From: a virus
Taxonomy: Duplodnaviria > Heunggongvirae > Uroviricota > Caudoviricetes
Length of the DNA: 64,000 bases
IMG/VR virus record: IMGVR_UViG_3300021387_000076
Reading direction: 5' to 3' (one strand)
In this document: piece by piece, positions 12,001-57,586 of the stretch
Layout of the letters: each line of letters begins with the position of its first letter
How positions within the stretch are numbered: the stretch's first letter is position 1
Translations under genes and position numbers: made by a program
Notes under the pieces: model-generated
What the model was told of the DNA's origin: nothing
The model's database searches: none
What the model saw: the letters and a program-made list of their open reading frames with translations, nothing else

Positions 12001-12994
12001 TAACGCAATTCTCAGTGATAAAGATACCTTCCTTAACTTCATGCGCGAAAGCGATGAATATGTCAATGCTTCTGAAACTGAGAAGCAGTCTCTTATTTAC
12101 GAATGGGAGAAACTGTATGACGACTACGTCAAAGCTCGTCTAAATGGGCCAGTAGGTTCTCATAGTGACGAAGGCTATGGTGACTGGTACGGTTCCGAAT
12201 ACACCGGCGCTGATGGCGGTGGCGGTGGAGGCGGAGGATCTGGTGGATCCAGCGGTGGCCCTGGTACTTCAACAAGCAATGAAGATGAATGGCTTTGGTA
12301 TGCTGTTGATCAGCGTGGCAAAGTTATATCTGCTGGATATGCGAAAAAAGAAGATGCTGAAGCAATAGCAAAAAGAGAACAAGGCGGAAGAGTAATGCGG
12401 CTGCATAAATCCAACGCATCGACAGAAGCTAAAGTTAATACTGCTGTATATTCTGTCACAGATCCAATCAAGTCTACAGTCAATTCTGTGGCAAATTCTG
12501 CTATTGGCTCAACAATTGGAAGTATCGCAAAAACAGTAGGCAACGCTACGTCGAATGCATTAAGTGCAATAACAAATTCAATTGGAAAACTTTTTAAACC
12601 TGCAAAAGCTGACACAGGTGCATATACTGGCAATCAGGAAGGTTTAATCTACGTTCATAAAAAAGAACGTATCCTGAATCCTCAGCAGACTGAATCATTC
12701 GAACGTTTGACTCGTGTTGCTGAATCTATGGACAGAACAAATGCTTTTGATGGTATTGTTTCCAAGATGAATGACTGGTCCAGCAATACTGTTGTTCCTA
12801 TCGACATGCCTTCGTTCAGTCCTTCTGACTTTAAGAACTCTACCACTACGACCATTGGTGATATCATCATTACTCTCAATGAAGCCAAGCTCGAGAACGA
12901 TGCTGATTACGAAGCGGTTGCTCAGAGAGTTGGCGAGAAGTTCGTCAAGGAACTTACCAAACAGGGACTTGGTGTTTCTGCTTTTGGCTTCTAA
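1..12994 (+). CDS. Tail tape-measure protein, 5'-truncated by the window edge (at least 4329 aa). It has a TP901-family TMP core domain at about nt 4000-4750, long coiled-coil Ala/Glu/Lys-rich regions and two poly-Gly linkers.
   Basis: Single uninterrupted ORF. The frame is open back to position 2. The stretch AIQLKAPIADVTAAATALYRQG...GTAMQTFMSRFSKIG...ISYAFGGTRQYSNL matches the conserved TP901-family phage tape-measure core. It lies immediately upstream of Dit-like and Tal-like genes. Confidence 0.8.
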   Translation, partial: QMFPQYSYGIRGNISDIELQDLRALRSKAIASVDRKIAERRAKEGLSETAAYFKGPNGENIAKYRSEMLGKYYIDDDPKHPSINVVDNIGDFGFTTRNLENALKEDALHNFYNDPNVYLVGRNQTMMQQMRETKRIAEDAMANSEQEDLQAIEAFDSQPVDNSAAQKANKEANKAETEAVKAEVEAANARKEAAEARKQAAEAQKATEQTAEQAVAKAEKATEQQARHALDYAEYTVTRTMPWMDTDTVDEHGNPAVGLENIYVTKKNGKTEKGNLPVSLAPYTPRGQKKRTMEEGRKEQASNEKYGSSSSGADALIGSSISHVMDQLGPTALTKTIYGEGLHGIEKLAYQGLKEYYTNHEEEMKQLGITFNDADMSAFDPSKTNFSYSGKDAKILDKLNALTPAKLARYFVDDIVHQDRDRNGVLSAKDDARTIISTEGKIYDPIMGNVLNESTMVSGPSGGEKEIGYTLKGIKNSKGEDVVTRFAPDYIVRDGKTGKIVIGDHKSSPHGADKGIIQGSVYAAWLDDLAEEYYKTTDENRKRELDPYKIFGQLNDKGEYESNIVGIETRDFFTGTTDRREYNQEIRRLESERIRKAQEKKYAEAQGNFGKYGLNDIPVVTTAGEEPPAGSNPPSSPNSNPPVNAQAAAADKRREGFFQEYQLLINRYSKLNESFGNFTSGMTGELYKDREGTYADNYFRRSRHSRDNVVSDTNLLKNSFIDLYDRAGWPDTNDLINTLEANKTAAINAYDVGTRAWAQNRSKRLLENAENFSLRKQDPFYKQREEIENQKNNVKEMESTLDNFILSRFEKSEISRDENTGAINGILQDGKIVAIRDAVLNGKENNDTVELMKTRLESLKTASDENIKLINEQIERDVDREIADMQEASDAVTKTHQTSGQQRENYWNKKRRKLSESIEDRIVARDALDKMLEDTETYKEDNPKRKQLERLRDQYNKSIDQESEYLNNGGFDKDSQDDLQALRTSRLNQLRHYFSGTRESPIAQMVSNGMLSLKDLDNNGDILNAGSQFYQGMLGMLDESISGQKARYTNFVDDLSRTGNMSVTERINRSYQSKRMQSLASIKQMQQEAIDLDKMLTTGKDLDGREMFDVNDTSETTQGIKNRIEKYRDFLKDISKQAQDALDKTLPDQESKEIARTLEDVKTQSEIQTDKYQYGANQIQRSEAARRRQLDMHSRGYRSAFGQELEWRRNQYDNAVSREESYSLRRKQLNAERTRLQRQLDDDDANEEKLSSEERSGIEGQLAAATNEYEALGEAIVKARQEQTEFGASGQAVAAALTVIGGAVSKVAKQFGTRIWHMAMQETMQFVKSYDAAMTEIQMVTLKTDTQISNIGKGLIDSAIQLKAPIADVTAAATALYRQGLGDEDVQTRLQDVIKFSTTAGVKAADAVKLITVSLNSGLVSSSQEAMDVISALGDSAATTAAEITKGLQKSVYAAKDVGVSYNELVSMLTAITAGTQLGGNIAGTAMQTFMSRFSKIGTNELVYDENGNQMSGSALASVLQSVGIKTYEGGERRRFTDVLSELAGQWDSLSDARKSQISYAFGGTRQYSNLNALLTAFGEVDENGQTAIEKYLGIAKGSEGMTDAKYQSYTESLAASINTLKNSFDGLVESLTNTNVLTGFIDFISNAITGITELNTALSGVPAILVAIGAALTVLTSSNPILLGIAAAIAGVAAVGNIAHNIATSSKVNSDPLHNLNSSKSSIEKDNAARVSQVKENLGIARQLNKKRLSGQELSQDESSRLVESLSKLQNLGVDSIKASTDINALAASAQATAKALDGVTTAATALSDRQVKELLNAFLTDVDNNKERFQEDKDKISLSDEERETARNAIDKAKNKQYGSALEFYEDIIPVLNAMDLSGLDRITVNRKTNTPSKFSPQELAGVLYTAYSNTQEDLEDLGIDDFNISEYSQLMDVIESVLSNGDSLNRLKNTFMFGESNRAGITELVKQSLAGTAHQDITDAIIESIIADANQAENFDFLNGDVRGYASLYAARNKKNVVTNRSKNGNLLGSAASALVLSGDLTGSFDSLYEWLGSRRGKAKNDVLIRALNRQLQLGAEGSFPMLESMLQDPDFAKALLRFGTLNEDGTYTFNEYDETDENNNGIPDVEETGKVNGVSDEDLDYLMRIIASKGKKYKLASYRSNADILSSAQNAITSLGQGTKWKDLTDDALQDVAAVLGEEYYSKLANGQTLDDALLNNLYSRYLNNVSSYSQTGYAKLGQNLLSSIGTSGYTLKGWQDENNLTQADMDSIFQLYDGLKEVASMTDAELEAGGYNPEEIKKGAEKTLNLITTLANIGESDWSDMSKNAITKFNGTYAEQLSEYSDLISQNDRFNEAKKAIERVKEGEWLETDLSTLQSLTGIKIDFKNVDTAIDDVESVYNTLVTNFSNGLNETLMNVVSEETISDIKIEKPTLNTSELVGYLGNSVEEWVKRAIEDLGIAMQNGEFVYDVENLNQVTATTVAGIMSGYNNNQTSKNINILSGIRNALKDEGNTSLDEELSGFSADDLMEWFKNNPVASELANRVGSEYSGFYSRLIDGMINPQENKGVAYNQDLLRHYIDRMNKGQSFDIVNDAVDKFIYDELTSAYGADFTNMFRNGYNETIANNLLTGVSSFRTRQQAVDNVRTIVSDIIGGRKDFASLSENSTDLNDLNAIIPENIRGGLFGEGSVYTAENRDAILERLYSQYLTGQGMNNYDIANYAKTMLDDYENIRTNGLQQWGIDNGLLDSEIDTILNAYQGLREFVTGPASNINDAITKRALTSQMLSNMVSESDYSDLTKAYISSLNGSESEKDALLAERQVEMETYDEVDEAIKRIESGNYSDTDLATVNKLSPYALTMDNVGSYLGLAKSSITRTRTNKQSALIEALNTLYPNANVTDETILNNLKALGIKIVDGKFVTDEAIQNPSISSLSSRSSAQYNKEAVDRNSILSQISTLVNQSFFKEDYEGSLFDLLPDNSQFRDFFKNQQANGLINELLVAANNKTIDQGQFNNLFEGFINPNGKKSADYYASAFKYYRDQIANQETVLEGSFNDYIVDMLTGTFGETFTKGRTDSKLTAEDTFFDMYLEIAKKRMDKYSNKTAYSKAMSLLDSYANAPETLLQSDIEDLTRPIARAKEEFNNYDARQNTSAIASVLGWSQDTVKEKMQTDKGRAEVEEAIKKTEETTTEAITMLIDTLRSSIASAFNVSGDSVEEVDGKIAEVAGEIGQLFSQLVEKYGHLVITPEADQTYSELYDNFINSRNTGSQRDIFGFAKRMKENGQTFSNVTATAGTNEDAYIRALLGDKAYMNMFEANQRNILSDSAFDTYLSNRQNGTDNQYSVYSNILDNLLGGGVEGGFLGSLENGTISADTITNTLSAPDNTWIRDYIESLNGGKEALEDISKGGENAKNGIDQLAAAMRNAGASAASDYRNDLTEMTNILNNLKKGGQDAGKAMGQLSKKLYDAYDNVLASNRIRGKSGKQVDKTTRGIVGEFLGISDDKQIQKMTKKQMDHVADLMESSGKDAIDNGFVNSFEEELKNALNALQPGSEQYKLVNSILLKAVADGEVDTSELDAVIAALQNDVLSSMNAAIGPIGTLMLSIFAAGNSITAALTGGAQLGTALLSGAKANVNLNTGNKAKYQSHGGGGGGGGGKSESAAEKLVNRVKKGSELYNHQLKMIQYQETKHQNAGELTMYGNELQREIDLEKAYQPALQENIKALKSQLNSVSKGSEDWYKLREALFSAEEQYDDITNTIEENERKLKENREAIRQTRTALEDLLTSQIEERIKKQRDMLAGTVDMQSIILDAIRQRYQDEWDLIKKDIEKKKQALEQEKSLIDERLNLRKNAADEAKKYEELAELKSQLARVSMDSTRTKDAAALREQIAKIEEEIGWDIADQQAESEKQQIDDQIKGYDEFVAQGDEDLSKFLEDTNNFAQEITTVLGMSHDELFAWLKNNVTDFKNSLDEVQQQMIDSWEDTYKQMFGITDTYWEQVNAILSDKDTFLNFMRESDEYVNASETEKQSLIYEWEKLYDDYVKARLNGPVGSHSDEGYGDWYGSEYTGADGGGGGGGGSGGSSGGPGTSTSNEDEWLWYAVDQRGKVISAGYAKKEDAEAIAKREQGGRVMRLHKSNASTEAKVNTAVYSVTDPIKSTVNSVANSAIGSTIGSIAKTVGNATSNALSAITNSIGKLFKPAKADTGAYTGNQEGLIYVHKKERILNPQQTESFERLTRVAESMDRTNAFDGIVSKMNDWSSNTVVPIDMPSFSPSDFKNSTTTTIGDIIITLNEAKLENDADYEAVAQRVGEKFVKELTKQGLGVSAFGF

Positions 12995-14136: not shown

Positions 14137-17100
14137 ATGGCTGACAACAGAGTATTACATTTAGACTTATATGATTACTCGGGCAATAAAATATGTCCGA
14201 TATACGATAACTATACACCGGTGCTCGGAGAAGCTGTTAACGTTTACATTCAGGATGAACGGAACGGATGGAGAGAACTGTACTTCGATATGCCAACTGT
14301 TATCCAGAGCGAAGAAGGTAACCTTGAGAACTTCAGGATAGACCTTCTGAAGGCTGAATACCTTATCGAGGCTACAGAAACAAAAGGCAAGGACTGGTTC
14401 TTTATTTCCGAACCAAAGATAGTACATAATGCCTTCAACAAATCCTTGTCAATTACTGCTCCTCATGTATCACAGTGGCTTAAATACAAGAACCTTGGAA
14501 TGGAATTCTCAGACAACGAAGGCAATAACATCGGCACAGCAGAAGAACTTCTTCGTACCATACTCGAAGGAACAGGCTGGAAAGTTGGCAATGTATATCC
14601 GTTTGCAGAAAAGGATGGCTCAACTAAATACAGATCATTGAAGGCTTCCGCAAAAACGGGAGCCTTCAAGCTTATCACTTCGATGTGTGAACTGTTCGAT
14701 GCCCGCCCTGTATTTCATGGAGATACAAGAGAAATAGACATCGTTCCTCTTAACCCATTCTCTGAAGTGGCGCCGGGTGAAGTTCCAGCATATGCCAAAG
14801 AGAATGGAGTTATTGAACTTAACTACGGTTCTTCTTTAAAGAATGTTACCCGTGTCATCAATACAGACAACATAGTTACAAAGCTTTATGCTTACGGTGC
14901 ATACGGCGACAAGACATATGGATATTGTGCAATTGATGAATGTGTACACACTGAGTATGTTTTTACTACGAATCAGAGACTTGAATCAGGACATGAGTAT
15001 TTCTTCGAGGTTAATGATACATCCGGTACTTTAACAAGTTTTTCATTCACAGTTACAGAAGATCTGGAAGCTGGAGAGACTCTTATTTACTCGTTGCTTG
15101 ATCCGTGCTCAATGAGCTACATCTGGAGAGAACCAAACGGAAAAGCTTACTTTGTCAAACAGGGCAAGCGAGGCGAGCAGTTGGACGCTTCGATTGAAAC
15201 CAAAGAAGAAGTTCCTAATTGGTTTGGTTTTCTGCTTGACTTCAACTACTATATTACCATTGGCTTGTTTGACGACGAGATGCTCCAGCAGGTGGCAAGG
15301 TATCAGCGTGAAGCCCCGGCTCTGTATGAAAGAATATCTCAGGCCTCTCTTGCAATGTCTGAGGCTGTTACCGAACTGAGCAAAACGGCAGGTGTTTTTC
15401 CTTACTGTAAGCTTGCAGTAAAAGAAAAGCTTGACGGTTTTGCTGACGGTTATTTGACTCTTAGGCTTGACTATGAGAATTATGACCAGGGTGTTATCTA
15501 TCGTACAGATTACGACAGCACAAAGGATACCTATTTTAAATGGGTCGTAACAGATGAAGTTGACCCAAAAGGTGACCCAATTAATACAGGCTGTTCGAGG
15601 CTTTACATTATGCATCCCGCTGATGCAAGTAAACCTATAACGTGGGATGTGTTGTGCCTCAAGAAGGTCTATGATGATCTCGTCAACCCAAAAGCTATTA
15701 CGCTGTGGGCAAACGAGAACGATATAAAGATAGACTTTGAAAAGGATCAATTCTTCCTGCTGCAGAGTCTCAGTACTGCAGGCTATCTCGGTTATCTTGA
15801 ATCAAGGGATGAAGCGGCAGTCGAGTCACTCGACGACGCTACGACAATAGCTACAAATACACACAAGGTTATTTTCATTGATGAAGATCCTCATTACGTT
15901 CAGACACCCGGAGGACAGACACCTTTCCCGGGTATAGATGTGCAGACATATGACTGGATGAAAGTAAATTCATATGGCTGGCTATGGAGGTATTATCCTG
16001 TAGAGCGTGACGGAGCTTTTACCGAATCTGACTTCTACTTCTGCAATAAAGCTTACGACACTGAAGATGGAAAAGTATCATGGAAGCGTGTGGCTTTCAC
16101 CGACAAGATGCCAACTGATGCCCGTGCCGATTACTGGTATAACTGGAGAACGAATACGCTGTCCAGAAGCAATGGAACTGTATGGAATTCACTTGACTCA
16201 TACACAGATGAAAACATTGCCAGTTACTTTGGCACTGTATATTACTTCGGAAAGATAAGAGACATGCTTTATCAGGGTGTAAAGAGAAAACAGATATACA
16301 CTCTTGGCGATGACTCTTCTCTGACTGAAAAAGTTATTCCTGCAGGCAACTATTATTTCGAGAATGGCTATGGCAGCTTCTGGGCTTTTACTCTCAATGA
16401 ACCTGTTGAAGGATCCAATTCTTCAATAACATATGACGTCTATAACAACTGGATTACAGTGAGACGCAACGGAGTGGACGAGTCCATCAAAGGAAAAACA
16501 TATCGTTTTGACGGAGTCAAGTATCACCCAAGTGATATCATCACTGTAAGGAATGCAACGCCTGGACTTATAGACATAACAAACGGAAACGTATATGACG
16601 AATACGACGCAAGCGTATACACGAACTGTAAATACAATGACGTATATCTTCCCGTACTGCCAGACACAACATATCAGTTTTCCAAGCTTGTCTATAATAC
16701 TTATATCCTTTATTACAACGACAAGAAACGGTGGATATCTTCCGGACCGGCATCATCCACCTACTTCACCACACCTGCAAACTGTTTTTATATCAGGCTC
16801 TTGGGTTACGGCTTGAGCGGCGCTGCCAACACTTCTTCTCTTATCGATGAGTTCGAAGAAGGATACAGCGGCGAAAGAACGACAATTTCTGTAACCCAGC
16901 CTTTTGGATCTGAACTTATAGGCACATGTGACAACACAATTATCTTGAGTGACATGACGTATCTCAAGCTGAACGTCACCTCAACTGACGGAGAAACAAT
17001 TGGTCTGCTTGCGTGCATGCAGAAGTTTGTCGATGACTCCAACTATATCTATACAGATCTCTATGCGAATCTGAAGTCTGCACAGGATGCCGTAAAAGAA

Positions 17101-19101
17101 CTTGAAAATGCGCTGACTGATAAATGCGGTGACATTTACAGGGAAGGTTACTGGCAGGATTCCAGCTACGTAGACGGCGACGAGAAGAAACTTTACGAAG
17201 ACGCCTGGGAGAACCTTGAAGAAATATCCAAGCCTGAGACGACATATAATATTTCTTTCCTTGACCTGTATACTTCGAATGACGAGAACAAAGATTTCGG
17301 AAATACAGAACAGTCTGCAGCCATATCTTGGCCTAACATAGACATCTCTTCTGCGGTTCATTTAATAGACCAAGAGCTTGACATTAACTGCTGGGCCTAT
17401 GTAGACAAAATAAAGAAGTGTTATGACAAGCCGTGGCTCACCACTCTTGCAATCAACACGAAGCTTTCCACAATTGGTCAGCATACCTTTACGGATGTTA
17501 TGACGCATATAGCCGATGTTGCAAGCGAGATGAAAGGGAAGGCTTCCAAGTATGATAACGCAGCAAACAAAGCAATTGCCGCGCTGAACATGAACCTGAC
17601 AGGAGCAAACGTCTCTATAACTGAACAGGCTCTGACTTCTGTCTACAACAAGATGGATGTTATAGACAACAAGCTTATCTCACATGAGTCAAGTATTACA
17701 CAGACGGCTGAAGAGATAACCACAGAAGTAGCGAGGTCTATTGAATCTGACAGACAGTTGACTACCAGAATCAAGCAGACAGCAGACAGTATTCGTACTG
17801 ATCTCTTTGGCAAGAATGGATCCGGTAACATCATCCAGAATGCAGATGAATTCTCTTCTACGTATCAGAATAACTATACTGCAGCAATCGAAACGAAGCA
17901 GCAGATAGCAAGGGCTCACACCATAAATGAAAACAGACCAGACGGTGTTAACTTTGCAAGCGAAGAAGAACGCACAGAACTTGTTAACCTGATCACAGCT
18001 CTGCAGAATAAAGGATATATCAACAGCACTTACAACCCTGAGACGCTTGTCAATGACAAGACGGGTATTACTTATGTTCTCAATCAGATACCTGAATTAA
18101 AAGAAGACAACTTAATGTCGAACCTGAAACAAACAATGTACGGCCTGTACCTCAGCATTTATGGCACTGACAGCAACGGTCATGTCATAACAAGTGCTGA
18201 CGAGTTCAGGTCTGTTTTTGCGTCTGCCGACGCACAGAAACAGACCGAGATGACACAGACCATGTATGGCATAACGAACATCGTTGAATCTAAAGACGGC
18301 AAGTCTTTGATCACTCAAGATGATCGTTCTATTATGGCACAGGTTCGCAGTGCCAATGCTGATCCCAATGGCGGCAACGCATTCAATACGAGCAGCATTA
18401 ATATCACTGATGACAACATCCATGTATCAAGCACTGGTTCTATCAATATCGATGCCGGTGGTAAGTTTACAGTAGACTCTGATAACTTTGACGTCGACGA
18501 GAACGGTATCATGACGACAAACGAAGCTGTTCTCACAAACGCTACGGTCGTCGGAAATATTTACAAGAACGGTTATCCGGTGCTTGCAATAGGTGATGAC
18601 ATTATCGTGTCGACTACAGAGCCTGCTGGCGTGGCTGGACGTATATGGATTAAACCTGGTACAGGTGAAGGCGGCGGTTCTTCAACGCCTGGATCTACAG
18701 GTACTGTGACATACACAGGATCCTACGCATTCAGTATCAGGTCTTATGAAAACCTGCATAACTTCTCTACTTCTCTTACAGGAAATGGCTTTGCTTCCAG
18801 TTCTACTAACTGTACATACAGAATACAGTTTAATTTCTTTATGCCTTCTTCTGAGGGAAAACAGAAGCCTGGTGGAGGCAAGATCAGAGTTGTGCTTGGC
18901 AATTATCTTGCCGCAGAAACTGGGCTTTATACAGGATCAGGTAACAAGAGTGTTGATATTACTTTCAGTGCAGAGACATGGCTTGGCAATTCAAATTCTC
19001 TTTCTTTTACCATTCAGGTTATCGGTGTGTCTGGATACAATGGCACATATTTGAACAATGCTTCTTCTTCGAGCATTACTGTTACATGTACAGCTAACTA
19101 A
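14137..19101 (+). CDS. Tail-associated lysin / prophage tail endopeptidase (Tal)-like protein with a long fiber/receptor-binding extension (1654 aa)
   Basis: RBS AAGGAAGTGA. N-terminal MADNRVLHLDLYDYSGNKICPIYDNY... resembles the siphovirus Tal/prophage-tail N-domain. Size and position after Dit fit Tal. The C-terminus is beta-rich and lectin-like. Confidence 0.55.
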   Translation: MADNRVLHLDLYDYSGNKICPIYDNYTPVLGEAVNVYIQDERNGWRELYFDMPTVIQSEEGNLENFRIDLLKAEYLIEATETKGKDWFFISEPKIVHNAFNKSLSITAPHVSQWLKYKNLGMEFSDNEGNNIGTAEELLRTILEGTGWKVGNVYPFAEKDGSTKYRSLKASAKTGAFKLITSMCELFDARPVFHGDTREIDIVPLNPFSEVAPGEVPAYAKENGVIELNYGSSLKNVTRVINTDNIVTKLYAYGAYGDKTYGYCAIDECVHTEYVFTTNQRLESGHEYFFEVNDTSGTLTSFSFTVTEDLEAGETLIYSLLDPCSMSYIWREPNGKAYFVKQGKRGEQLDASIETKEEVPNWFGFLLDFNYYITIGLFDDEMLQQVARYQREAPALYERISQASLAMSEAVTELSKTAGVFPYCKLAVKEKLDGFADGYLTLRLDYENYDQGVIYRTDYDSTKDTYFKWVVTDEVDPKGDPINTGCSRLYIMHPADASKPITWDVLCLKKVYDDLVNPKAITLWANENDIKIDFEKDQFFLLQSLSTAGYLGYLESRDEAAVESLDDATTIATNTHKVIFIDEDPHYVQTPGGQTPFPGIDVQTYDWMKVNSYGWLWRYYPVERDGAFTESDFYFCNKAYDTEDGKVSWKRVAFTDKMPTDARADYWYNWRTNTLSRSNGTVWNSLDSYTDENIASYFGTVYYFGKIRDMLYQGVKRKQIYTLGDDSSLTEKVIPAGNYYFENGYGSFWAFTLNEPVEGSNSSITYDVYNNWITVRRNGVDESIKGKTYRFDGVKYHPSDIITVRNATPGLIDITNGNVYDEYDASVYTNCKYNDVYLPVLPDTTYQFSKLVYNTYILYYNDKKRWISSGPASSTYFTTPANCFYIRLLGYGLSGAANTSSLIDEFEEGYSGERTTISVTQPFGSELIGTCDNTIILSDMTYLKLNVTSTDGETIGLLACMQKFVDDSNYIYTDLYANLKSAQDAVKELENALTDKCGDIYREGYWQDSSYVDGDEKKLYEDAWENLEEISKPETTYNISFLDLYTSNDENKDFGNTEQSAAISWPNIDISSAVHLIDQELDINCWAYVDKIKKCYDKPWLTTLAINTKLSTIGQHTFTDVMTHIADVASEMKGKASKYDNAANKAIAALNMNLTGANVSITEQALTSVYNKMDVIDNKLISHESSITQTAEEITTEVARSIESDRQLTTRIKQTADSIRTDLFGKNGSGNIIQNADEFSSTYQNNYTAAIETKQQIARAHTINENRPDGVNFASEEERTELVNLITALQNKGYINSTYNPETLVNDKTGITYVLNQIPELKEDNLMSNLKQTMYGLYLSIYGTDSNGHVITSADEFRSVFASADAQKQTEMTQTMYGITNIVESKDGKSLITQDDRSIMAQVRSANADPNGGNAFNTSSINITDDNIHVSSTGSINIDAGGKFTVDSDNFDVDENGIMTTNEAVLTNATVVGNIYKNGYPVLAIGDDIIVSTTEPAGVAGRIWIKPGTGEGGGSSTPGSTGTVTYTGSYAFSIRSYENLHNFSTSLTGNGFASSSTNCTYRIQFNFFMPSSEGKQKPGGGKIRVVLGNYLAAETGLYTGSGNKSVDITFSAETWLGNSNSLSFTIQVIGVSGYNGTYLNNASSSSITVTCTAN

Positions 19102-23855: not shown

Positions 23856-24068
23856 TTATGCTGTGTGATATCCAACCCATCCGCAGTCACATTCATACTG
23901 GTACTGACACGGATAAGAAGTAAGAATAATATCCATGCGCTTCCATATTCTTTTGCCGCATATCGGACATTCAATATCTGTTTCAATCCGAGAAACAGTA
24001 TTATTAATAGGAAGCTCGCGCTTAATGTAGTCATTCCACTTCATTACTTTCACCTCTGTGGTACACAA
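23856..24068 (-). CDS. Small zinc-finger protein
   Basis: CPICG...CDCGW motifs. Confidence 0.3.
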   Translation of the reverse strand: MCTTEVKVMKWNDYIKRELPINNTVSRIETDIECPICGKRIWKRMDIILTSYPCQYQYECDCGWVGYHTA

Positions 24069-24795
24069 GATCTTCTATATATTCAGGCTGATCATGGAAC
24101 GATGGGATCTGATAATCAATGAACCATTTGCGGTCTTCACCTTTTTTGACACATATACCAAGTCTGTTTTCAGCCAATACATTGTCCCAGTCTATTCCTT
24201 TAGCCAGAAGCATTTCTTTGATATTGTTGCCTTTCTTTGCATACAATTCCTTTTGTGTGAAATGCATTCTTGCTAAAGTCTGAATTGAATTCTTTTCACA
24301 GTCTCTCTGCCGCCAGAGAAAATAGTTAAGTACTTCTTCGCGAGGCAGAGTAAATGCACGGGAGTCGAATATCGCCGGCCTGAAAGTTTCAAATGCTTTT
24401 GCGAGTCCGTTGCTTGCAAACCCACATTCAACTGCGATCTTCATCGCGTGATTGAAGTGCAGTGTAGCCATCGCAGCGGAGACACTTGTAATTTTCTGGA
24501 GGTTTTTATCAAACCATGGTTGTGTCTCATAGGTATCGTCGTCCATAACAAGCAGGCTTATTTCATCCGACTGAGTGTATGCAAGCTTTGCTCCCATGAT
24601 ATCTCTGCAGAGCTGCCTTGCCGTGTCAGCCATACAACTGCTGAGCGACATATCAAATGGACGGTCAAAGTCTTTTGTAAAAGTATGGAAGTGACATCCG
24701 TCAATGCGGATGATCATCGGAGTTCTTTTGGTAAGGTATTTTCTTTCGATGTTTTCGTAACCTTTCATCCTGTCACCAAGAGAGGTTTTATCCAT
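24031..24795 (-). CDS. Thg1-like protein (tRNA-His guanylyltransferase-like 3'-5' nucleotidyltransferase)
   Basis: Strong SD AAGGAG 9 nt before the ATG at 24795. Motifs IIRIDGCHFHTFTK, AYTQSDEISLL and FDSRAFTLP line up with Thg1 family motifs (RIDGxxFHxFS, ESDEYSF, FDSR) recalled from yeast Thg1. Confidence 0.65.
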   Translation of the reverse strand: MDKTSLGDRMKGYENIERKYLTKRTPMIIRIDGCHFHTFTKDFDRPFDMSLSSCMADTARQLCRDIMGAKLAYTQSDEISLLVMDDDTYETQPWFDKNLQKITSVSAAMATLHFNHAMKIAVECGFASNGLAKAFETFRPAIFDSRAFTLPREEVLNYFLWRQRDCEKNSIQTLARMHFTQKELYAKKGNNIKEMLLAKGIDWDNVLAENRLGICVKKGEDRKWFIDYQIPSFHDQPEYIEDLVYHRGESNEVE

Positions 24796-24994
24796 TGTTA
24801 ATATCTCCTTGCAGAAACTCATATGTTATGACAGGCGATGCTGTCGCTGCTGTCGCAAGTCTTATTGTCTTAAGTGCATCAACAGCCATCATGAGAGCCT
24901 GTCTGTATTTTCCACTGAGATAGTCATGATGAAGTTTCATGTCATTCTCAATCATCGCAATTGCTTCGTCGATAGTCATTTTCTGCTGATACAC
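24788..24994 (-). CDS. Hypothetical protein (68 aa)
   Basis: ORF only. Confidence 0.3.
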   Translation of the reverse strand: MYQQKMTIDEAIAMIENDMKLHHDYLSGKYRQALMMAVDALKTIRLATAATASPVITYEFLQGDINNG

Positions 24995-25221
24995 CTGTTC
25001 TCAAATTTCTTATAGGCGTCAAGATACCATTCGTTCTTGTCGCCGTTGAAAGTCATTTCATAATACATTCCGTCAGGCAATGTGGAACTGATCAGATATT
25101 TCCAATTCTGTAAAGCCTTGCATTTCCACACAATGAATGTTTCGAAAGACTGTACGGGATCCGTTTTATCAAGATGTTCTTTGATATAACTTGTTACAAC
25201 CATTAAAGCTTCGTTATCCAT
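24976..25221 (-). CDS. Hypothetical protein (81 aa)
   Basis: ORF only. Confidence 0.35.
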   Translation of the reverse strand: MDNEALMVVTSYIKEHLDKTDPVQSFETFIVWKCKALQNWKYLISSTLPDGMYYEMTFNGDKNEWYLDAYKKFENRCISRK

Positions 25222-25274: not shown

Positions 25275-25448
25275 CTAAAACCAAATAAGGTTTTGCACTC
25301 TCCTGCTAGCTGGAACATTCGGATGCCATCCACGACTTGTTCTTACGACCTCGGAGCATGTAAGAAGCGCAGGCTTGTCCGATGAAGTTATCTGTTGGCT
25401 TCAGATATACCACTCGGACTCCCTTGGTACGCTGTACGGTCTGATACG

Positions 25449-25519
25449 CTGAGATGGCAGGAATTGAACCTGCAATAGGGGAGTCAAAGTCCCCTGTTAT
25501 TCCACTTAACTACACCTCA
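25449..25519 (-). tRNA. tRNA-Gln (anticodon UUG), 71 nt, CCA not encoded
   Basis: Hand-folded cloverleaf. Acceptor TGAGGTG/CATCTCA with U1:A72 and one G-U. D-arm GTTA-AGTGGAA-TAAC. Anticodon arm GGGGA-CTTTGAC-TCCCC with U33 and A37. T-arm GCAGG-TTCAATT-CCTGC. Confidence 0.8.
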
Positions 25520-26738: not shown

Positions 26739-26921
26739 TTACAAGTAGTTCAGCTGCCATTTACTTGGCTGGTTCATTCCGTCGTCTTCATCTTTTACAA
26801 TCGGCTTCCAATAACTGATGAACTCTGAATATGCCTGTTTCGTATATTCTTTCGGAAGCTCTACACACATTCGCTTCGCTAAATACTTTGCATATTCTTC
26901 CTGTTTCTGTGTGGGAGTCAT
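26739..26921 (-). CDS. Hypothetical protein (60 aa)
   Basis: ORF only. Confidence 0.3.
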   Translation of the reverse strand: MTPTQKQEEYAKYLAKRMCVELPKEYTKQAYSEFISYWKPIVKDEDDGMNQPSKWQLNYL

Positions 26922-26922
26922 A

Positions 26923-27183
26923 TCAGGATCTCCTTGTATATTTCTTTTTATTGTACAGTTTGCAAAAGCGGCGCCATTTGCGGATGGCGCCGCTTACAGT
27001 AAAGGCTCGGTTGGCAGCACTATAGCAATTCGTACAAGCCATCAAGTAGCGTTTAAATTTTCTGTTACGTGACTTCCAGAGAAATATTCTCTTGGCACCG
27101 CACCATGGACATTTAAACGCTTTTTGTTTTGACTTGTCCCAATACATTCTAACAACCTTATCGTCAATATTCTGCAACATTGT
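26923..27183 (-). CDS. Basic zinc-ribbon protein. The true start is probably the internal Met at 27183.
   Basis: CPWCG...CTNC motifs. The N-terminal extension of the 133 aa ORF would translate through a tRNA-like hairpin. Confidence 0.35.
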   Translation of the reverse strand, partial: TMLQNIDDKVVRMYWDKSKQKAFKCPWCGAKRIFLWKSRNRKFKRYLMACTNCYSAANRAFTVSGAIRKWRRFCKLYNKKKYTRRS

Positions 27184-27197
27184 TTTCACTTCACTTG

Positions 27198-27383
27198 AAT
27201 ATGTGGGTAAGGATTTGCACCTTACATAATGTCCTCTGTCTTTTGACACCGTAGGAGCGCGAAACCTACGAATGGGGACATCGAAGTTTGTCTCTACGTC
27301 TACTGTTACTGAGCGTCTCGCCACAGTTTTACCATCCTTTCGCCGTAGCCATTGGGATGTCTATTCCGCCACCACAAAATTGG
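27198..27383 (-). ncRNA. tRNA-like unit 1, degenerate (D-arm motif damaged, long insert). Possibly a pseudogene.
   Basis: T-arm hairpin GTAAGG-ATTTGCA-CCTTAC at 27207-27225. D-like motif at 27359-27373 lacks a pairing stem. Confidence 0.25.
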
Positions 27384-27480
27384 TATTTGCCTTTACTCAC
27401 GCATGAGTGTTTGCTGCTGCCGATACCTCGATGGAAGTGGTTTTCATCCTTCCTGCTCTCCGAAGAAAGCAGCCGCTATT

Positions 27481-27612
27481 AATATGTGGGTAGGGATCTG
27501 CACCCTACATGAACGCTTGCAATTAATGCTATCTATCTGTGGAATCAATTGCTGTGCAATATCTTCGTGCGTTCGTATTGTTAACTGTGTCTATCTATTC
27601 CACCACCACATG
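27481..27612 (-). ncRNA. tRNA-like unit 2
   Basis: Acceptor CATGTGG/CCACATA (6 of 7 bp, position 1 mismatched). D-arm GTG-GAATAGATAGA-CAC. T-arm GTAGGG-TGCAGAT-CCCTAC. Insert between D-arm and T-arm of about 80 nt. Confidence 0.4.
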
Positions 27613-27613
27613 A

Positions 27614-27730
27614 ATATGCGGGTCAGGATTTGCACCTGACATAGGCAGGATTGCTGTTTTTGCATGCTCGGATGGATGCGTCTGCCGCCCTACCGATACT
27701 GGCTGTGTTTACCTATTCCACTACCGCATA
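27614..27730 (-). ncRNA. tRNA-like unit 3
   Basis: Perfect 7 bp acceptor TATGCGG/CCGCATA. D-arm GTG-GAATAGGTAAA-CAC. T-arm GTCAGG-TGCAAAT-CCTGAC. 64 nt between D-arm and T-arm. Confidence 0.45.
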
Positions 27731-27897
27731 AAAAAACACATGGCCCAACCGAATCGAACGGCAGGATTAAGCCCTGTAGTGCTGTCCATAAGGATGACTT
27801 TGCAGAGAACCAGGCACCATGTAATTGTGATCTAAGGCGTCACAAGACCTCACTCTTGAACCTCAGGAACTCCGAGTGAATCAGTTTCATACGATGT

Positions 27898-28009
27898 GAT
27901 CTCTGGCGAGGATTTGCACCTCACATGAATACCGTTGCCGCTTTTCCTCATATACGTTTCGGAAATCGTATTCTTACAGTGTAGCGTCTACCTATTTCGC
28001 CACAGAGAT
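27898..28009 (-). ncRNA. tRNA-like unit 4
   Basis: Perfect acceptor ATCTCTG/CAGAGAT. D-arm GCG-AAATAGGTAGA-CGC. T-arm GTGAGG-TGCAAAT-CCTCGC with one G-U. 60 nt insert. Confidence 0.45.
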
Positions 28010-28011
28010 CA

Positions 28012-28130
28012 TTATACGGGTCAGGATTTGCACCTGACATGTCGGTTTTGCCGAACACCGTAGCTCCGACAACCGTTAGCCATGTATTGGCATCTTAATT
28101 TTTTGCGTCTACCTATTCCGCCACCGTATA
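28012..28130 (-). ncRNA. tRNA-like unit 5
   Basis: Perfect acceptor TATACGG/CCGTATA. D-arm GCG-GAATAGGTAGA-CGC, which differs by 1 nt from E. coli tRNA-Leu. T-arm GTCAGG-TGCAAAT-CCTGAC. 65 nt insert. Only 2 nt from unit 4. Confidence 0.45.
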
Positions 28131-28290
28131 TTTAATTGCCGTCTAACTAGCGCCTAAAAGATGTCAACCTTCTCGGAGCTTACAACCACGACAATCGCCT
28201 GAAGCCCGGGTCGATCTGTTTATGCTCGGTCTTGGGTGTTGACAGCACCCGCCGCCTAGCCGTCTCCCAAGTGTGCTGTGCGGTTAATGA

Positions 28291-28392
28291 AGATGCGGGT
28301 CGGGATTTGCACCCGACATAACGCATACAGGAATATGCGTTCAGCGATATGGCCAGTATCTTACCTGTGTCTACCTATTCCACCACCACATG
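28291..28392 (-). ncRNA. tRNA-like unit 6
   Basis: Acceptor CATGTGG/CCGCATC (6 of 7 bp with a G-U, position 1 mismatched). D-arm GTG/CAC. T-arm GTCGGG-TGCAAAT-CCCGAC. 49 nt insert that includes an 8 bp hairpin. Confidence 0.4.
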
Positions 28393-28501
28393 TACGGGTG
28401 AGGATTTGCACCTCACATAAGTACGTTAATCTCCGTATGCCAGCGGCTCTTCCCGTACTCTTTTGCTGGCTTCCAGCGTCTACCTATTCCGCCACCGTAT
28501 C
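28390..28501 (-). ncRNA. tRNA-like unit 7, overlapping unit 6 by 3 nt
   Basis: Acceptor GATACGG/CCGTACA (5 of 7 bp, positions 1-2 mismatched). D-arm GCG-GAATAGGTAGA-CGC. T-arm GTGAGG-TGCAAAT-CCTCAC. Confidence 0.4.
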
Positions 28502-28785
28502 TGACAGACCAAGCCTTCTCCCAACAGTCTGCCGTGAGCCACGCCTTCCGTTATTTAGCCACGGACCAGGGCTTTAACAAGGTGGCTCGTCCCCAATTAA
28601 ACTACTGAGGTATAGTCCATCGTTCATTAAAATTATAAGCAGAGGTCATTCGGCATCACCTTCTTGCTTTGCTATAGCGGCAAGGTCTTTCTCTATCTTT
28701 TCCAATGTGGAATAAATATTAGAAAGAGAAACACCAAGGCTAAAATTTATCAGACCAAGCAGGATGGCTATAATGTTAAGTTCCG

Positions 28786-28974
28786 TCATTCTTGTTCCTC
28801 ATCTTTTATTTTGTGACATTTATTTCCGTTGTTCATCATGCAGTATAAACATTGAGTACTGCATCCCGAATAAAAGTCAGGACATATCTTTGGTCTGCCT
28901 TGACAATTCCAGAATTTATCATGATAGTAACTACAGAGTTCTTTACATTCTTTGCAAACATCTGAAGTATTCAT
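28786..28974 (-). CDS. Small Cys-rich protein (62 aa)
   Basis: Multiple CxxC motifs. Confidence 0.3.
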   Translation of the reverse strand: MNTSDVCKECKELCSYYHDKFWNCQGRPKICPDFYSGCSTQCLYCMMNNGNKCHKIKDEEQE

Positions 28975-57570: not shown

Positions 57571-57586
57571 TTGCAATTGCCCCTTT

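What the first reader, a model, noticed from the sequence alone, without database searches (positions are those of the whole stretch)
27198..28505. Tandem array of seven non-canonical tRNA-like genes with long internal inserts and compensatory stem changes
Seven minus-strand units, each about 102-132 nt (unit 1 about 186 nt), share four tRNA-like parts. The first is a D-arm nearly identical to bacterial tRNA-Leu (G-GCG-GAATAGGTAGA-CGC), with GCG/CGC changing to GTG/CAC in some copies. The second is a T-arm hairpin whose 6 bp stem varies (GTCAGG, GTAAGG, GTAGGG, GTCGGG, GTGAGG, GCGAGG) with matching compensatory changes on the 3' side. The third is a T-loop that is always TGCAAAT, so position 55 is G rather than the near-universal U. 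The fourth is a 7 bp acceptor stem, perfect in units 3, 4 and 5. Between D-arm and T-arm lie 50-65 nt (and about 130 nt in the degenerate unit 1), against 31-39 nt in any standard tRNA, and I could not fold a canonical anticodon arm there. Units abut within 1-2 nt, and units 6 and 7 overlap by 3 nt. Units 2, 6 and 7 have mismatches at acceptor positions 1-2. The covariation argues for a functional structured RNA. The architecture points to intron-containing or insert-containing tRNAs, or a new phage tRNA-like ncRNA family.
Basis: seen in the sequence. Interest (0 to 1): 0.85.

Follow-up and report, generated by a model that had tools for sequence, protein, structure and literature searches.

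The report
Anticodon-less tRNA-Leu-like phage RNA array
The seven repeats are real members of a widespread, unannotated phage RNA family that keeps the acceptor, D and T parts of leucine tRNA but swaps the anticodon arm for a hypervariable structured insert, so it cannot decode and its job is still unknown.

Summary
Seven minus-strand units (27199-28501) each have a 7-bp acceptor stem, a tRNA-Leu-type D-arm, a 49-130 nt variable core, and a 6-bp T-stem with a UGCAAAU loop. ARAGORN and Rfam 15 recognise none of them.

They are not a local oddity. The loop motifs hit more than 120 IMG/VR contigs, 95 bacterial genome contigs (mostly Bacillota) and many cultured phages of Listeria, Enterococcus, Lactobacillus and Leuconostoc. 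None of these copies is annotated.

Across 126 members, 98.4% of stem cells pair, against 36-45% in slid controls, with 552 double-sided changes. A covariance model scores the window units at 49-80 bits and genuine phage tRNA-Leu genes at 31-44 bits, so the family derives from tRNA-Leu.

No anticodon arm or intron-like exon pairing exists. The cores fall into 152 unrelated but internally covarying modules. Trailers are U-rich and lack CCA, which fits RNase P/RNase Z maturation.

- The units sit in pairs separated by three conserved spacers of 104-168 nt.
- The "degenerate" unit is a recurring subtype with a D-loop insertion.

My best reading is a non-decoding tRNA chassis that displays variable RNA modules. 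The function is inferred, not shown.

The parts
28391..28501 (-). Unit 1 of the tRNA-Leu-like RNA array. Acceptor GAUACGG/CCGUACA (5/7 pairs), D-arm GCG-GAAUAGGUAGA-CGC, 59-nt core, T-arm GUGAGG-UGCAAAU-CCUCAC.
   Evidence: Parsed. Covariance model R1 scores it 75.6 bits, E=3e-18.
28292..28392 (-). Unit 2. It overlaps unit 1 by 2 nt. Acceptor 6/7 pairs, D-stem GUG/CAC, 49-nt core ending in the hairpin AACGCAUA-uuccug-UAUGCGUU, T-stem GUCGGG/CCCGAC.
   Evidence: Parsed. It is part of seed alignment A1. cmsearch suppressed it only because it overlaps unit 1.
28013..28130 (-). Unit 3. Perfect 7-bp acceptor UAUACGG/CCGUAUA and a 66-nt core closed by GUCGG/CCGAC.
   Evidence: 79.6 bits. The orthologue at L234 5371-5486 is 89% identical and has a compensatory U-A to C-G change in the core's closing helix.
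27899..28009 (-). Unit 4. Perfect acceptor AUCUCUG/CAGAGAU, D-loop AAAUAGGUAGA, 59-nt core closed by GAAUAC/GUAUUC.
   Evidence: 75.7 bits. L080 carries a homologous core whose closing helix is the covarying GGAAAC/GUUUCU.
27615..27730 (-). Unit 5. Perfect acceptor UAUGCGG/CCGCAUA, D-stem GUG/CAC, N8N9 = UA, 64-nt core.
   Evidence: 67 bits. The orthologue at L234 4483-4597 is 94% identical in the core, while its acceptor has changed compensatorily from C-G to U-A.
27483..27612 (-). Unit 6. Acceptor 6/7 pairs, D-loop GAAUAGAUAGA, T-loop UGCAGAU, 78-nt core closed by GAACGC/GCGUUC.
   Evidence: 62.6 bits. Parsed.
27200..27378 (-). Unit 7, a subtype with a second, 57-nt structured insertion inside the D-loop between GGAAUAG and UAGACG. 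It also has the usual variable core.
   Evidence: 49.2 bits. The D-loop insertion is homologous to those in L228 2079-2297 and L229 970-1172, and its hairpin arms differ in sequence in the window copy yet still pair.
28131..28291 (-). Spacer 1, a conserved non-coding block between unit pairs. Its nature is unknown.
   Evidence: 79% identical over 154 nt to L234 4147-4296, in the same position relative to the units. The pairwise fold shows 5 compensatory pairs and 0 broken pairs, but the MFE z-score is +0.6, so the evidence for structure is weak.
27731..27898 (-). Spacer 2. It contains a canonical T-arm-like hairpin (GCCG-UUCGAUU-CGGU) and ends in a stem followed by a U7 run, which looks like a terminator.
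   Evidence: Read directly from the sequence. Its 3' half is 80% identical to L003 9125-9056. The MFE z-score is +0.3. The consensus scan did not call it a terminator.
27379..27482 (-). Spacer 3, a highly conserved multi-hairpin non-coding block.
   Evidence: 95% identical over 95 nt to L234 4599-4693. z = -1.5, with 2 compensatory and 0 broken pairs against L234.
28505..28595 (-). Conserved non-coding block upstream of unit 1 ('spacer 0').
   Evidence: 71% identical over 98 nt to L234 4699-4795. In L234 this block ends in a hairpin followed by a U-run.

Best explanation
Each unit encodes a stable, non-decoding RNA that evolved from phage tRNA-Leu.

What it keeps:
- the 7-bp acceptor stem and U8;
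- the Leu-type D-arm (3-bp stem, loop GAAUAGGUAGA with A14, A15, G18, G19);
- a U in the position of U48;
- a T-arm with U54, C56, A58 and G53-C61.
These are the parts that build the tRNA elbow and the end recognised by tRNA-maturation enzymes.

What differs:
- the anticodon arm is gone;
- between the D-arm and the T-arm lies a 37-140 nt core that differs from phage to phage but is itself folded;
- the T-stem has a sixth base pair, giving 13 stacked acceptor/T pairs instead of 12;
- T-loop position 55 is G.

Inferred mechanism. The units are transcribed as part of a polycistronic precursor, here a roughly 1.4-kb non-coding operon that also holds four other conserved blocks. RNase P cuts each unit out at the 5' end and RNase Z at the 3' end, and CCA is then added. 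The product is an L-shaped RNA that cannot read codons. The 13-bp helix and G55 probably keep it away from EF-Tu and the ribosome. The tRNA body would then act as a host-compatible chassis, providing processing, stability and docking to tRNA-binding factors. It would display interchangeable structured modules that bind or decoy host or phage factors. The array of seven units would deliver seven different modules at once.

What is shown: structure, ancestry, modularity, distribution and processing signals. What is inferred: actual processing, exclusion from translation, and the decoy or effector role.
For: Family and structure:
- The motif pair hits more than 120 IMG/VR contigs, 95 genome contigs and many cultured phages.
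- In 126 members, 98.4% of helix cells pair, against 36-45% when partners are slid. There are 552 double-sided changes, and 0 of 500 shuffles reach the observed value.
- The sixth T-stem pair covaries: GC 109, AU 10, CG 2.
- 125 distinct acceptor sequences occur, and 192 of 227 are perfect 7-bp stems.

Ancestry:
- Model R1 scores family members at 46-85 bits and neighbouring genuine tRNA-Leu genes at 31-44 bits.
- The D-arm is identical to that of real phage tRNA-Leu. The real genes have a 5-bp T-stem, a UUCAAGU loop and an anticodon arm.

Tertiary-core residues:
- They are invariant even in members found independently of the search motif.
- The residue 5' of the T-stem is U in 227 of 227 members, although it was not part of the search pattern.

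No anticodon arm:
-.

Modular cores:
- 152 unrelated modules occur among 194 cores, with no shared motif.
- Recurrent modules have 2-5 compensatory pairs each.
- The same core occurs with different acceptors, and the same acceptor with different cores.

Processing signals:
- U at position 74 in 63% of members, against a 27% background.
- U at -1 in 45%.
- CCA encoded in 4 of 209.
- Units abut like genes in tRNA clusters and lie inside tRNA clusters in phages Lenus and EFDG1.

No dedicated partner protein:
- The recurrent neighbours are only the late activator, HNH and TerS. The RNA must therefore work with host or universal phage factors.
Against: - No expression, end-mapping or binding data exist, so everything after 'it folds like this' is inference.
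- The D-loop and T-loop are extremely invariant, more so than in real tRNA-Leu genes. This suggests a specific sequence-reading partner for the conserved part, which a pure 'chassis' model does not explain.
- The cores might be selected only to fold stably without binding anything.
- The three pair-separating spacers and the upstream block are also conserved, so the functional unit may be larger than a single tRNA-like RNA.
- The idea that EF-Tu and the ribosome exclude the RNA because of its 13 stacked acceptor/T-stem base pairs is an analogy with tRNA-Sec. It was not tested.
Confidence: 0.55

Rival explanations
1. Leucyl-tRNA synthetase ligand. The RNA keeps exactly the parts that bacterial LeuRS reads (acceptor end, Leu-type D-arm and elbow; not the anticodon). 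It would either be leucylated, acting as a non-ribosomal leucine donor or sink, or bind LeuRS as a competitor. The conserved core would be the business end and the variable core only a spacer.
For: - The D-arm is identical to real phage tRNA-Leu, and the model cross-hits tRNA-Leu genes.
- The D- and T-loops are near-invariant.
- The discriminator is A in 56% of members.
- From established knowledge: E. coli LeuRS identity rests on A73 plus the tertiary core, not on the anticodon or variable arm.
Against: - The discriminator is not conserved: A 56%, U 31%, G 6%, C 7%. In this window it is A in only 1 of 7 units.
- The first base pair is unconstrained: GC 39, AU 38, UA 30.
- G55 and the 6-bp T-stem depart from every real tRNA-Leu.
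- The cores show their own purifying selection, which a spacer would not need.
Confidence: 0.15
2. Processing punctuation. The tRNA-like units mainly serve as RNase P/RNase Z cleavage signals that release or stabilise flanking RNAs, namely the conserved spacers here and the late-operon mRNA in temperate phages. This would resemble tRNA punctuation in mitochondria.
For: - The spacers between unit pairs are conserved in a related phage at 79-95% identity.
- In temperate phages the unit sits between the late-activator gene and the HNH/terS genes, at the head of the late operon.
- RNase Z/RNase P-type leader and trailer biases are present.
Against: - Punctuation needs neither a hypervariable structured core nor invariant D- and T-loop sequences.
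- Most loci carry a single unit with no conserved flanking RNA.
- The spacers show no thermodynamic signal (z from -1.5 to +0.6).
Confidence: 0.12
3. True tRNAs that carry introns or inserts which are removed to give a decoding tRNA.
For: - The acceptor, D and T parts are complete and the genes lie in tRNA clusters.
- ARAGORN at an 80% threshold with introns allowed emits calls over some units.
Against: - Those calls assign a different amino acid and intron position to every unit and vanish at default thresholds.
- No conserved anticodon-stem halves flank the core.
- No group I, group II or bulge-helix-bulge signature or Rfam hit is found.
- The T-arm is non-canonical in all members.
Confidence: 0.04
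4. Base-pairing small RNAs. The variable core is an antisense seed carried on a tRNA scaffold and targets phage or host mRNAs.
For: The cores are hypervariable and modular, as seeds would be.
Against: - None of the seven window cores has complementarity to the 64-kb window beyond shuffled controls. The longest matches are 10-13 nt, with P of 0.08-1.0.
- The cores are mostly internally paired.
- Host targets could not be tested because the host is unknown.
Confidence: 0.07
5. Not an RNA gene. The units would be decaying tRNA-Leu pseudogenes, att-site remnants, or DNA-level recombination or packaging signals near cos.
For: - In small cos phages the element lies close to the genome end and to HNH/terS.
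- The conserved ends could promote cassette exchange.
Against: - 552 compensatory double changes keep three helices paired in 98.4% of cells. That is selection on a folded single strand.
- Both halves of the acceptor stem are always present, unlike att remnants.
- The element also sits in tRNA clusters far from any packaging genes (and this window).
Confidence: 0.03

Closest known systems
Bacterial/phage type II tRNA-Leu (Rfam RF00005 tRNA)
   Same: - 7-bp acceptor stem and U8.
- An identical 3-bp D-stem and 11-nt D-loop (GAAUAGGUAGA also occurs in real phage tRNA-Leu).
- U before the T-stem, G53-C61, U54, C56 and A58.
- Location inside tRNA clusters.
- CCA-less, U-rich trailers.
- My model cross-hits tRNA-Leu genes at 31-44 bits.
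   Different: - No anticodon arm, hence no anticodon.
- T-stem of 6 bp rather than 5.
- T-loop UGCAAAU, with G at position 55, instead of UUCRANU.
- The discriminator and first base pair are unconstrained.
- A 37-140 nt hypervariable core.
- Not detected by ARAGORN or RF00005, even at E<=10.
Phage T4 stable RNAs rnaC/rnaD (species 1 and 2 RNAs)
   Same: - Small stable RNAs of unknown function, encoded inside a phage tRNA cluster and abutting tRNA genes.
- rnaC ends in a T-arm plus an acceptor-like stem with a long non-tRNA interior.
   Different: - Not homologous. rnaC scores 8.8 bits, E about 0.9, with model R1, and rnaD is not hit.
- rnaC has a canonical UUCGAAU T-loop and no Leu-type D-arm.
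- They are known only from T4-like phages of Proteobacteria.
tmRNA tRNA-like domain
   Same: An acceptor and T-arm with the anticodon arm replaced by other RNA. It is charged by a synthetase that ignores the anticodon (established knowledge).
   Different: - tmRNA has a degenerate D-loop, pseudoknots and a tag ORF, and needs SmpB.
- ARAGORN's tmRNA search finds nothing here.
- The cores are too short and too variable to hold a conserved tag frame.
YrlA / bacterial Y RNAs (tRNA-like module)
   Same: A non-coding RNA with a tRNA-like elbow made of D- and T-arm mimics. It is also found in some phages (my recollection of Chen et al. 2014).
   Different: - As I recall, the RNA ends in YrlA lie in the Ro-binding stem and the acceptor-like stem is capped, so it is a permuted topology.
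- No Rfam hit at E<=10.
- No rsr/Ro60 gene was noted nearby.
Engineered 'tRNA scaffold' for recombinant RNA (Ponchon & Dardel) and gammaherpesvirus tRNA-miRNA chimeras
   Same: A tRNA body used as a processing and stability chassis for an unrelated RNA inserted in place of, or next to, the anticodon arm (established knowledge). This is what the family 'works like' in my reading.
   Different: The first is artificial and the second is eukaryotic-viral. There is no homology, and a natural prokaryotic counterpart was not found in my literature searches.

Membership tests
Canonical tRNA (RF00005 / ARAGORN model) | Cloverleaf with a 5-bp anticodon stem and a 7-nt anticodon loop | tested here: not met
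   ARAGORN finds only tRNA-Gln at 25448-25519. Rfam finds no tRNA hit in 26900-28800 at the gathering threshold or at E<=10. Constrained folds show no consistent stem-loop after the D-arm.
Canonical tRNA (RF00005 / ARAGORN model) | 7-bp acceptor stem formed by the 5' and 3' ends | tested here: met
   All 7 pairs covary and 97.4% of cells pair. The window units have 5-7 of 7 pairs.
Canonical tRNA (RF00005 / ARAGORN model) | 5-bp T-stem with a T-loop U54-U55-C56-R57-A58 | tested here: not met
   The T-stem is 6 bp, with a covarying sixth pair, and the loop is UGCAAAU with G at position 55 in 224 of 227 members. Real neighbouring tRNA-Leu genes have 5 bp and UUCAAGU.
Type II tRNA-Leu | Leu-type D-arm: a 3-bp stem and an 11-nt loop with A14, A15, G18 and G19 | tested here: met
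   GCG-GAAUAGGUAGA-CGC is identical to the real phage tRNA-Leu of L011 and L072 and is invariant in independently found members.
Type II tRNA-Leu | Discriminator A73, the major LeuRS identity element (established knowledge) | tested here: not met
   A 56%, U 31%, G 6%, C 7%. In the window it is A in 1 of 7 units.
Type II tRNA-Leu | Leucine anticodon (NAG/YAA) | tested here: not met
   There is no anticodon arm.
Type II tRNA-Leu | Aminoacylation by LeuRS | not testable with these tools
   This needs an in vitro charging assay or an acid-gel Northern blot.
Intron-containing tRNA | Exon halves that restore an anticodon stem-loop once the insert is removed, or a recognisable group I or bulge-helix-bulge intron | tested here: not met
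   No conserved pairing links the ends of the core. ARAGORN -i gives calls only at an 80% threshold, each with a different amino acid and intron position. No intron family is found in Rfam.
tmRNA | tRNA-like domain plus a tag ORF and pseudoknots | tested here: not met
   ARAGORN's tmRNA mode finds nothing. No Rfam tmRNA hit.
T4 rnaC/rnaD stable RNAs | Sequence and structure homology to T4 species 1 and 2 RNAs | tested here: not met
   R1 with filters off gives 8.8 bits, E=0.9, on rnaC and nothing on rnaD.
The family defined here (model R1) | Acceptor, UG, Leu-type D-arm, variable core, AUG, 6-bp T-stem, UGCAAAU loop, acceptor 3' strand | tested here: met
   Six window units score 49-80 bits. 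The seventh is in the seed alignment. More than 200 members elsewhere score 46-85 bits.

The most novel reading that the evidence does not exclude
Phages of many bacterial phyla carry a natural 'tRNA scaffold' system. A frozen tRNA-Leu chassis hijacks host RNase P, RNase Z and CCA-adding enzymes to produce abundant, stable L-shaped RNAs. Their exchangeable, rapidly diversifying cores act as decoys or inhibitors of host factors, for example tRNA-directed immune nucleases or tRNA-modifying toxins. Multi-unit arrays like this one would be polyvalent counter-defence cassettes that evolve by swapping cores between conserved ends.
Probability: 0.2. Interest if true: 0.9.

Novelty: new variant of a known kind. 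Interest (0 to 1): 0.75.

Why it matters
tRNA-like non-coding RNAs are known, for example tmRNA, Y RNAs, the T4 stable RNAs and viral 3' tRNA-like structures. This one differs in several ways:
- It is a distinct, very widespread and sharply defined family.
- It is missing from Rfam 15 and from the annotation of every cultured phage I checked.
- It occurs in small lytic phages that carry no tRNA genes at all, so it is unlikely to be dispensable.
- It pairs an almost frozen tRNA elbow with one of the most variable RNA segments one could imagine, which suggests a conserved docking function coupled to a diversifying one.

Cultured, genetically tractable phages carry it: Listeria LP-101, Enterococcus EFDG1, Lactobacillus Lenus and phiJL-1, and Leuconostoc Ln-9. 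The question is therefore directly testable.

It also matters for annotation. These genes are currently invisible to tRNA finders, and spurious ORFs are sometimes called over them.

Tried and rejected
- **Known RNA family:** Rfam 15 at the gathering threshold on the window and 16 loci, and at E<=10 on the region, gave nothing relevant.
- **Hidden canonical tRNA or tmRNA:** ARAGORN default, intron, relaxed and tmRNA modes gave nothing credible.
- **Nucleotide homology to GenBank phages:** searches with the whole region and with 24 kb of context gave no match. Homologues were found only through the short loop motifs.
- **Functional link to the neighbouring Thg1-like tRNA-repair gene:** ten phage loci with the Thg1 homologue lack the RNA within 10 kb. 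Only 2 of about 215 RNA loci carry Thg1. Rejected.
- **Dedicated partner protein:** clustering of 3867 ORFs around 217 elements found only late-activator, HNH, TerS and YopX families.
- **Shared motif in the cores:** k-mer enrichment found none apart from the YCAU junction.
- **Antisense targets in the window:** none beyond chance.
- **T4 rnaC/rnaD homology:** rejected.
- **Literature:** seven full-text searches, including literal sequence motifs, found no description. The hits were unrelated PCR primers, or generic mentions of tRNA-like candidates in a 2023 catalogue.
- **Spacers as strongly structured RNAs:** the thermodynamic z-scores are unremarkable. Their conservation remains unexplained.
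Full report
**Observation.**

The T-arm core GGTGCAAATCC occurs six times exactly and once with one mismatch, all in this region. The D-loop core GGAATAGGTAGAC occurs six times with 0-1 mismatch, all in this region.

The parsed units are listed below.

| Unit | Coordinates | Acceptor pairs |
|---|---|---|
| 1 | 28501-28391 | 5/7 |
| 2 | 28392-28292 | 6/7 |
| 3 | 28130-28013 | 7/7 |
| 4 | 28009-27899 | 7/7 |
| 5 | 27730-27615 | 7/7 |
| 6 | 27612-27483 | 6/7 |
| 7 | 27378-27200 | not parsed; found by model R1 |

Each unit has a 3-bp D-stem, a 6-bp T-stem and a 49-78 nt core; the core is about 130 nt in unit 7. ARAGORN finds only a tRNA-Gln at 25448-25519. Rfam 15 finds nothing in the region, at either the gathering threshold or E<=10. 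ARAGORN with intron and relaxed options gives nothing until the threshold drops to 80%. At that point it emits mutually inconsistent calls.

**It is a large family.**

It also matches 95 contigs from species-representative bacterial genomes. Most of these are Bacillota (Lactobacillaceae, Bacillus, Paenibacillus, Clostridia, Lachnospiraceae), with scattered other phyla.

BLAST with a common variant, and with the two conserved halves, finds it in cultured phages:
- Lactobacillus phages Lenus, LP65, phiJL-1, Sha1 and ATCC 8014-B2
- Enterococcus phages of the EFDG1 group
- Listeria phages LP-101, LP-114 and LP-037 (B054 matches only the conserved T-arm half, 24 nt at 91.7% identity)
- Leuconostoc phage Ln-9 (LN34 and phiLNTR2/3 match only the conserved T-arm half)
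- Weissella, Brochothrix and Paenibacillus phages

In every listed record the feature under the match is 'none', a hypothetical protein, an uncharacterised ORF (orf80, gp75), or the record has no annotation.

**Structure.**

I parsed 226 instances. They carry 125 distinct acceptor sequences, and the 7-bp stem is perfect in 192 of the 227 parsed candidates (one of which was a chimera joining units 1 and 2). N8N9 is UG in 226 of 227. The residue just 5' of the T-stem is U in all 227, although it was not part of the search pattern.

On a MAFFT alignment of 126 diverse members (A1), I counted pairing in the three helices:
- 98.4% of cells pair, against 36-45% when partners are slid by 1-3 columns.
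- There are 552 double-sided changes.
- 0 of 500 shuffles reach the observed value.
- All seven acceptor pairs, two of three D-stem pairs and four of six T-stem pairs show compensatory changes.
- The sixth, outermost T-stem pair covaries (GC 109, AU 10, GU 4, CG 2).

The acceptor/T stack is therefore 13 bp, not the 12 bp of a normal tRNA.

The seed set was ascertained with exact loop motifs, so I aligned 32 members found in other ways: through arrays, through the window and through cultured phages. The loops remain near-invariant in them, as GUGGnGGAAUAGGUAGAC ... AUGnnnGGUGCAAAUCCnnnCC.

**Ancestry.**

Covariance model R1 scores the window units at 49-80 bits. Family members elsewhere score 46-85 bits.

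R1 also hits genuine tRNA-Leu genes in the same loci, at 31-44 bits. Those real genes share the identical D-arm. They differ in having a 5-bp T-stem, a UUCAAGU or UUCGAAU loop, a normal anticodon arm and a short variable arm.

The family is therefore a derivative of phage tRNA-Leu. The anticodon arm has been lost, the T-arm altered (U55 to G, plus one base pair), and the central region opened to insertion.

From established knowledge of tRNA architecture, the following residues build the tRNA tertiary core, and all are present: U8, A14, A15, G18, G19, the U in the place of U48, G53-C61, U54, C56 and A58. That an L-shape forms is inferred, not shown.

**The core.**

Constrained folding shows no constant stem after the D-arm; the unpaired lead ranges from 0 to 26 nt. 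In about half of the members a helix closes exactly 2 nt (AU) before the T-stem. That is the geometry of a type II variable arm, not of an anticodon arm.

Clustering 194 unique cores gives 152 unrelated modules. The only enriched motif is the 3' junction YCAU. Modules that recur in several phages keep their own helices, with 2-5 compensatory pairs each.

The same module occurs with different acceptor stems, and the same acceptor/T-arm occurs with different modules. Acceptor sequence tracks host clade; for example, GTGCTTG occurs in Lactiplantibacillus and Levilactobacillus phages. The picture is one of conserved ends with cassette-like exchange of structured cores.

**Genomic context.**

I clustered 3867 ORFs from within 2.5 kb of 217 elements. 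The only recurrent neighbours were:
- a late-activator gene (annotated DUF1492 or RinA-like) 200-290 nt upstream, in 64 loci;
- an HNH endonuclease (45 loci) or small terminase (21 loci) downstream.

All are on the same strand. In large lytic phages the element sits inside tRNA clusters: between two tRNA-Arg genes in Lenus, and after two tRNA-Leu genes in EFDG1. In the 28-kb Leuconostoc phage Ln-9 it lies beside the genome end.

No RNA-binding or RNA-modifying gene travels with it. The Thg1-like gene at 24031-24822 in this window is not linked to it.

**This window's array.**

The seven units form three abutting pairs plus one single unit.

| Element | Arrangement |
|---|---|
| Units 1 and 2 | overlap by 2 nt |
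| Units 3 and 4 | 3 nt apart |
| Units 5 and 6 | 2 nt apart |
| Spacer 1 (between units 2 and 3) | 28291-28131, 161 nt |
| Spacer 2 (between units 4 and 5) | 27898-27731, 168 nt |
| Spacer 3 (between units 6 and 7) | 27482-27379, 104 nt |

Tandem junctions are rare, occurring in 13 IMG/VR loci. Arrays of three to five or more occur only in large contigs of 70-165 kb. Seven units is the largest array I saw.

One such contig, L234 (IMGVR_UViG_3300021399_000152), is partly syntenic with this window:
- It has homologues of spacer 1 (79% identity) and spacer 3 (95%).
- It has a homologue of a block upstream of unit 1 (window 28595-28505, 71%).
- Its unit 5 orthologue is 94% identical in the core, with a compensatory C-G to U-A change in the acceptor.
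- Its unit 3 orthologue is 89% identical, with a U-A to C-G change in the core's closing helix.

The spacers are thus conserved elements of unknown nature. Their folding energies are unremarkable, with z-scores from -1.5 to +0.6.

The insertion lies inside the D-loop, between GGAAUAG and UAGACG, and its hairpin arms differ in sequence in the window copy yet still pair. Unit 7 is therefore a recurring subtype and not a decayed copy.

**How it probably works.**

Several signals fit maturation by the tRNA pathway:
- The first trailer nucleotide is U in 63% of members, against a 27% background.
- Position -1 is U in 45%.
- CCA is encoded in 4 of 209.
- Unconstrained MFE folds recover the acceptor stem in 197 of 211 and the T-arm in 169 of 211.

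From established knowledge of Bacillota tRNA maturation, CCA-less precursors are cut by RNase Z, which favours U after the discriminator. CCA is then added. The family matches that class.

I infer excision by RNase P and RNase Z followed by CCA addition. The product would be a stable L-shaped RNA that cannot decode. By analogy with tRNA-Sec, the 13-bp helix and G55 probably keep it out of EF-Tu and the ribosome.

Charging by LeuRS is possible for members with A73, but it cannot be the general function. The discriminator is A in only 56% of members, and in 1 of 7 units here.

The cores show no antisense complementarity to the 64-kb window beyond chance. No shared core motif and no partner gene exists.

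The reading that fits most observations is a conserved tRNA chassis that displays exchangeable structured modules, acting on host or general phage factors. A counter-defence role is a plausible guess. The only local hints are that the gene just downstream (26923-27186) has a sub-threshold match to the Lar restriction-alleviation family (19.9 bits against a cutoff of 28.6), and that L234 has small CxxC ORFs among its units.

The extreme invariance of the loops suggests the chassis itself is read by a specific partner. That observation keeps the LeuRS-ligand and other core-centred rivals alive.

**Comparison with known systems.**

The family works like an anticodon-less tRNA mimic or scaffold. 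It is not a member of any of the following:
- Canonical tRNA: no anticodon arm and a non-canonical T-arm.
- tRNA-Leu proper: no anticodon and a variable discriminator.
- Intron-containing tRNAs: no exon pairing.
- tmRNA or YrlA: no hits and a different topology.
- T4 rnaC/rnaD: these are the closest functional analogues, being stable RNAs of unknown function in a phage tRNA cluster, with rnaC ending in a T-arm and an acceptor-like stem. They are not homologous (8.8 bits).

Seven literature searches found no description of the family. A 2023 catalogue of about 10,000 candidate phage RNAs may contain it anonymously, but that paper discusses only candidates that ARAGORN recognises.

**Verdict.**

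- The 'new tRNA-like ncRNA family' interpretation is supported. The 'intron-containing tRNA' interpretation is not.
- The family is a new variant of a known kind, tRNA-derived non-coding RNAs.
- It is widespread, sharply defined and experimentally approachable. Its function remains open.

Noticed in passing
window 28131-28291, 27731-27898, 27379-27482, 28505-28595 (minus strand): Four non-coding blocks interleaved with the tRNA-like units are conserved in the related contig L234 (71-95% identity), or in L003 for part of spacer 2. They match no Rfam family and show no strong folding-energy signal.
   Followed up: partly
window 27731-27800 (minus strand, 3' end of spacer 2): A canonical T-arm-like hairpin GCCG-UUCGAUU-CGGU is followed by GGGCCAUGUG and a run of seven U. 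This could be a different tRNA-like remnant that doubles as an intrinsic terminator in the middle of the array. The consensus terminator scan did not call it.
   Followed up: partly
window 26923-27186 (minus strand): The gene immediately downstream of the array encodes an 85-aa zinc-ribbon protein with a sub-threshold match to the Lar restriction-alleviation family (19.9 bits against a cutoff of 28.6). The mechanical ORF call (GTG at 27324) overlaps unit 7 and is probably too long.
   Followed up: partly
L234 4800-5370: In the syntenic relative, three small CxxC zinc-ribbon ORFs sit between tRNA-like units. One of them ends in ...AIEAWNQR, which from my recollection of the family looks Lar-like.
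   Followed up: no
window 24031-24822 and 25448-25519 (minus strand): A Thg1-like tRNA-His guanylyltransferase gene (PHROG 4717, E=9e-81) and a tRNA-Gln(UUG) gene lie 1.7-3.2 kb downstream of the array. Thg1 homologues in ten other phage loci are not accompanied by the RNA family.
   Followed up: yes
L007 3449-3554 and L021 230-335: A 'drum' RNA (RF02958, 72 bits) lies about 115 nt downstream of a family member and just upstream of tRNA-Trp. Two orphan phage RNAs therefore share the same tRNA-cluster niche.
   Followed up: no
L063 11630-11737, L212 7368-7516 and 7637-7784, L231 4363-4506: Some cores contain canonical T-arm-like hairpins, for example GGGGUUCGACUCCCC and GGGUUCGAUUCCC. These look like fragments of ordinary tRNAs nested inside the family's variable region.
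   Followed up: no
L045 6153-6200: A half-unit is present: an acceptor 5' strand and a perfect D-arm, followed directly by a sequence complementary to the acceptor, with no T-arm (33 bits). It may be a truncated or minimal variant.
   Followed up: no
window 24976-25221 (minus strand): A DUF6275 protein (E=7e-29) is encoded here. Its homologue also lies next to a family member in L003, which suggests L003 is another distant relative of this phage.
   Followed up: no
window 5-12994, 14137-19101, 50554-57576: There are very large ORFs of 4329, 1654 and 2340 aa. The 2340-aa protein matches only PHROGs of unknown function. The phage has no nucleotide-level relative in GenBank phages.
   Followed up: partly
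GenBank OP650937.1 (Hujiaoplasma phage zrk29-2) 37992-38099: This record contains a unit 100% identical to the common Lactiplantibacillus-phage variant. That is unexpected for a phage said to infect a Tenericutes host. It could reflect contamination or very recent transfer.
   Followed up: no
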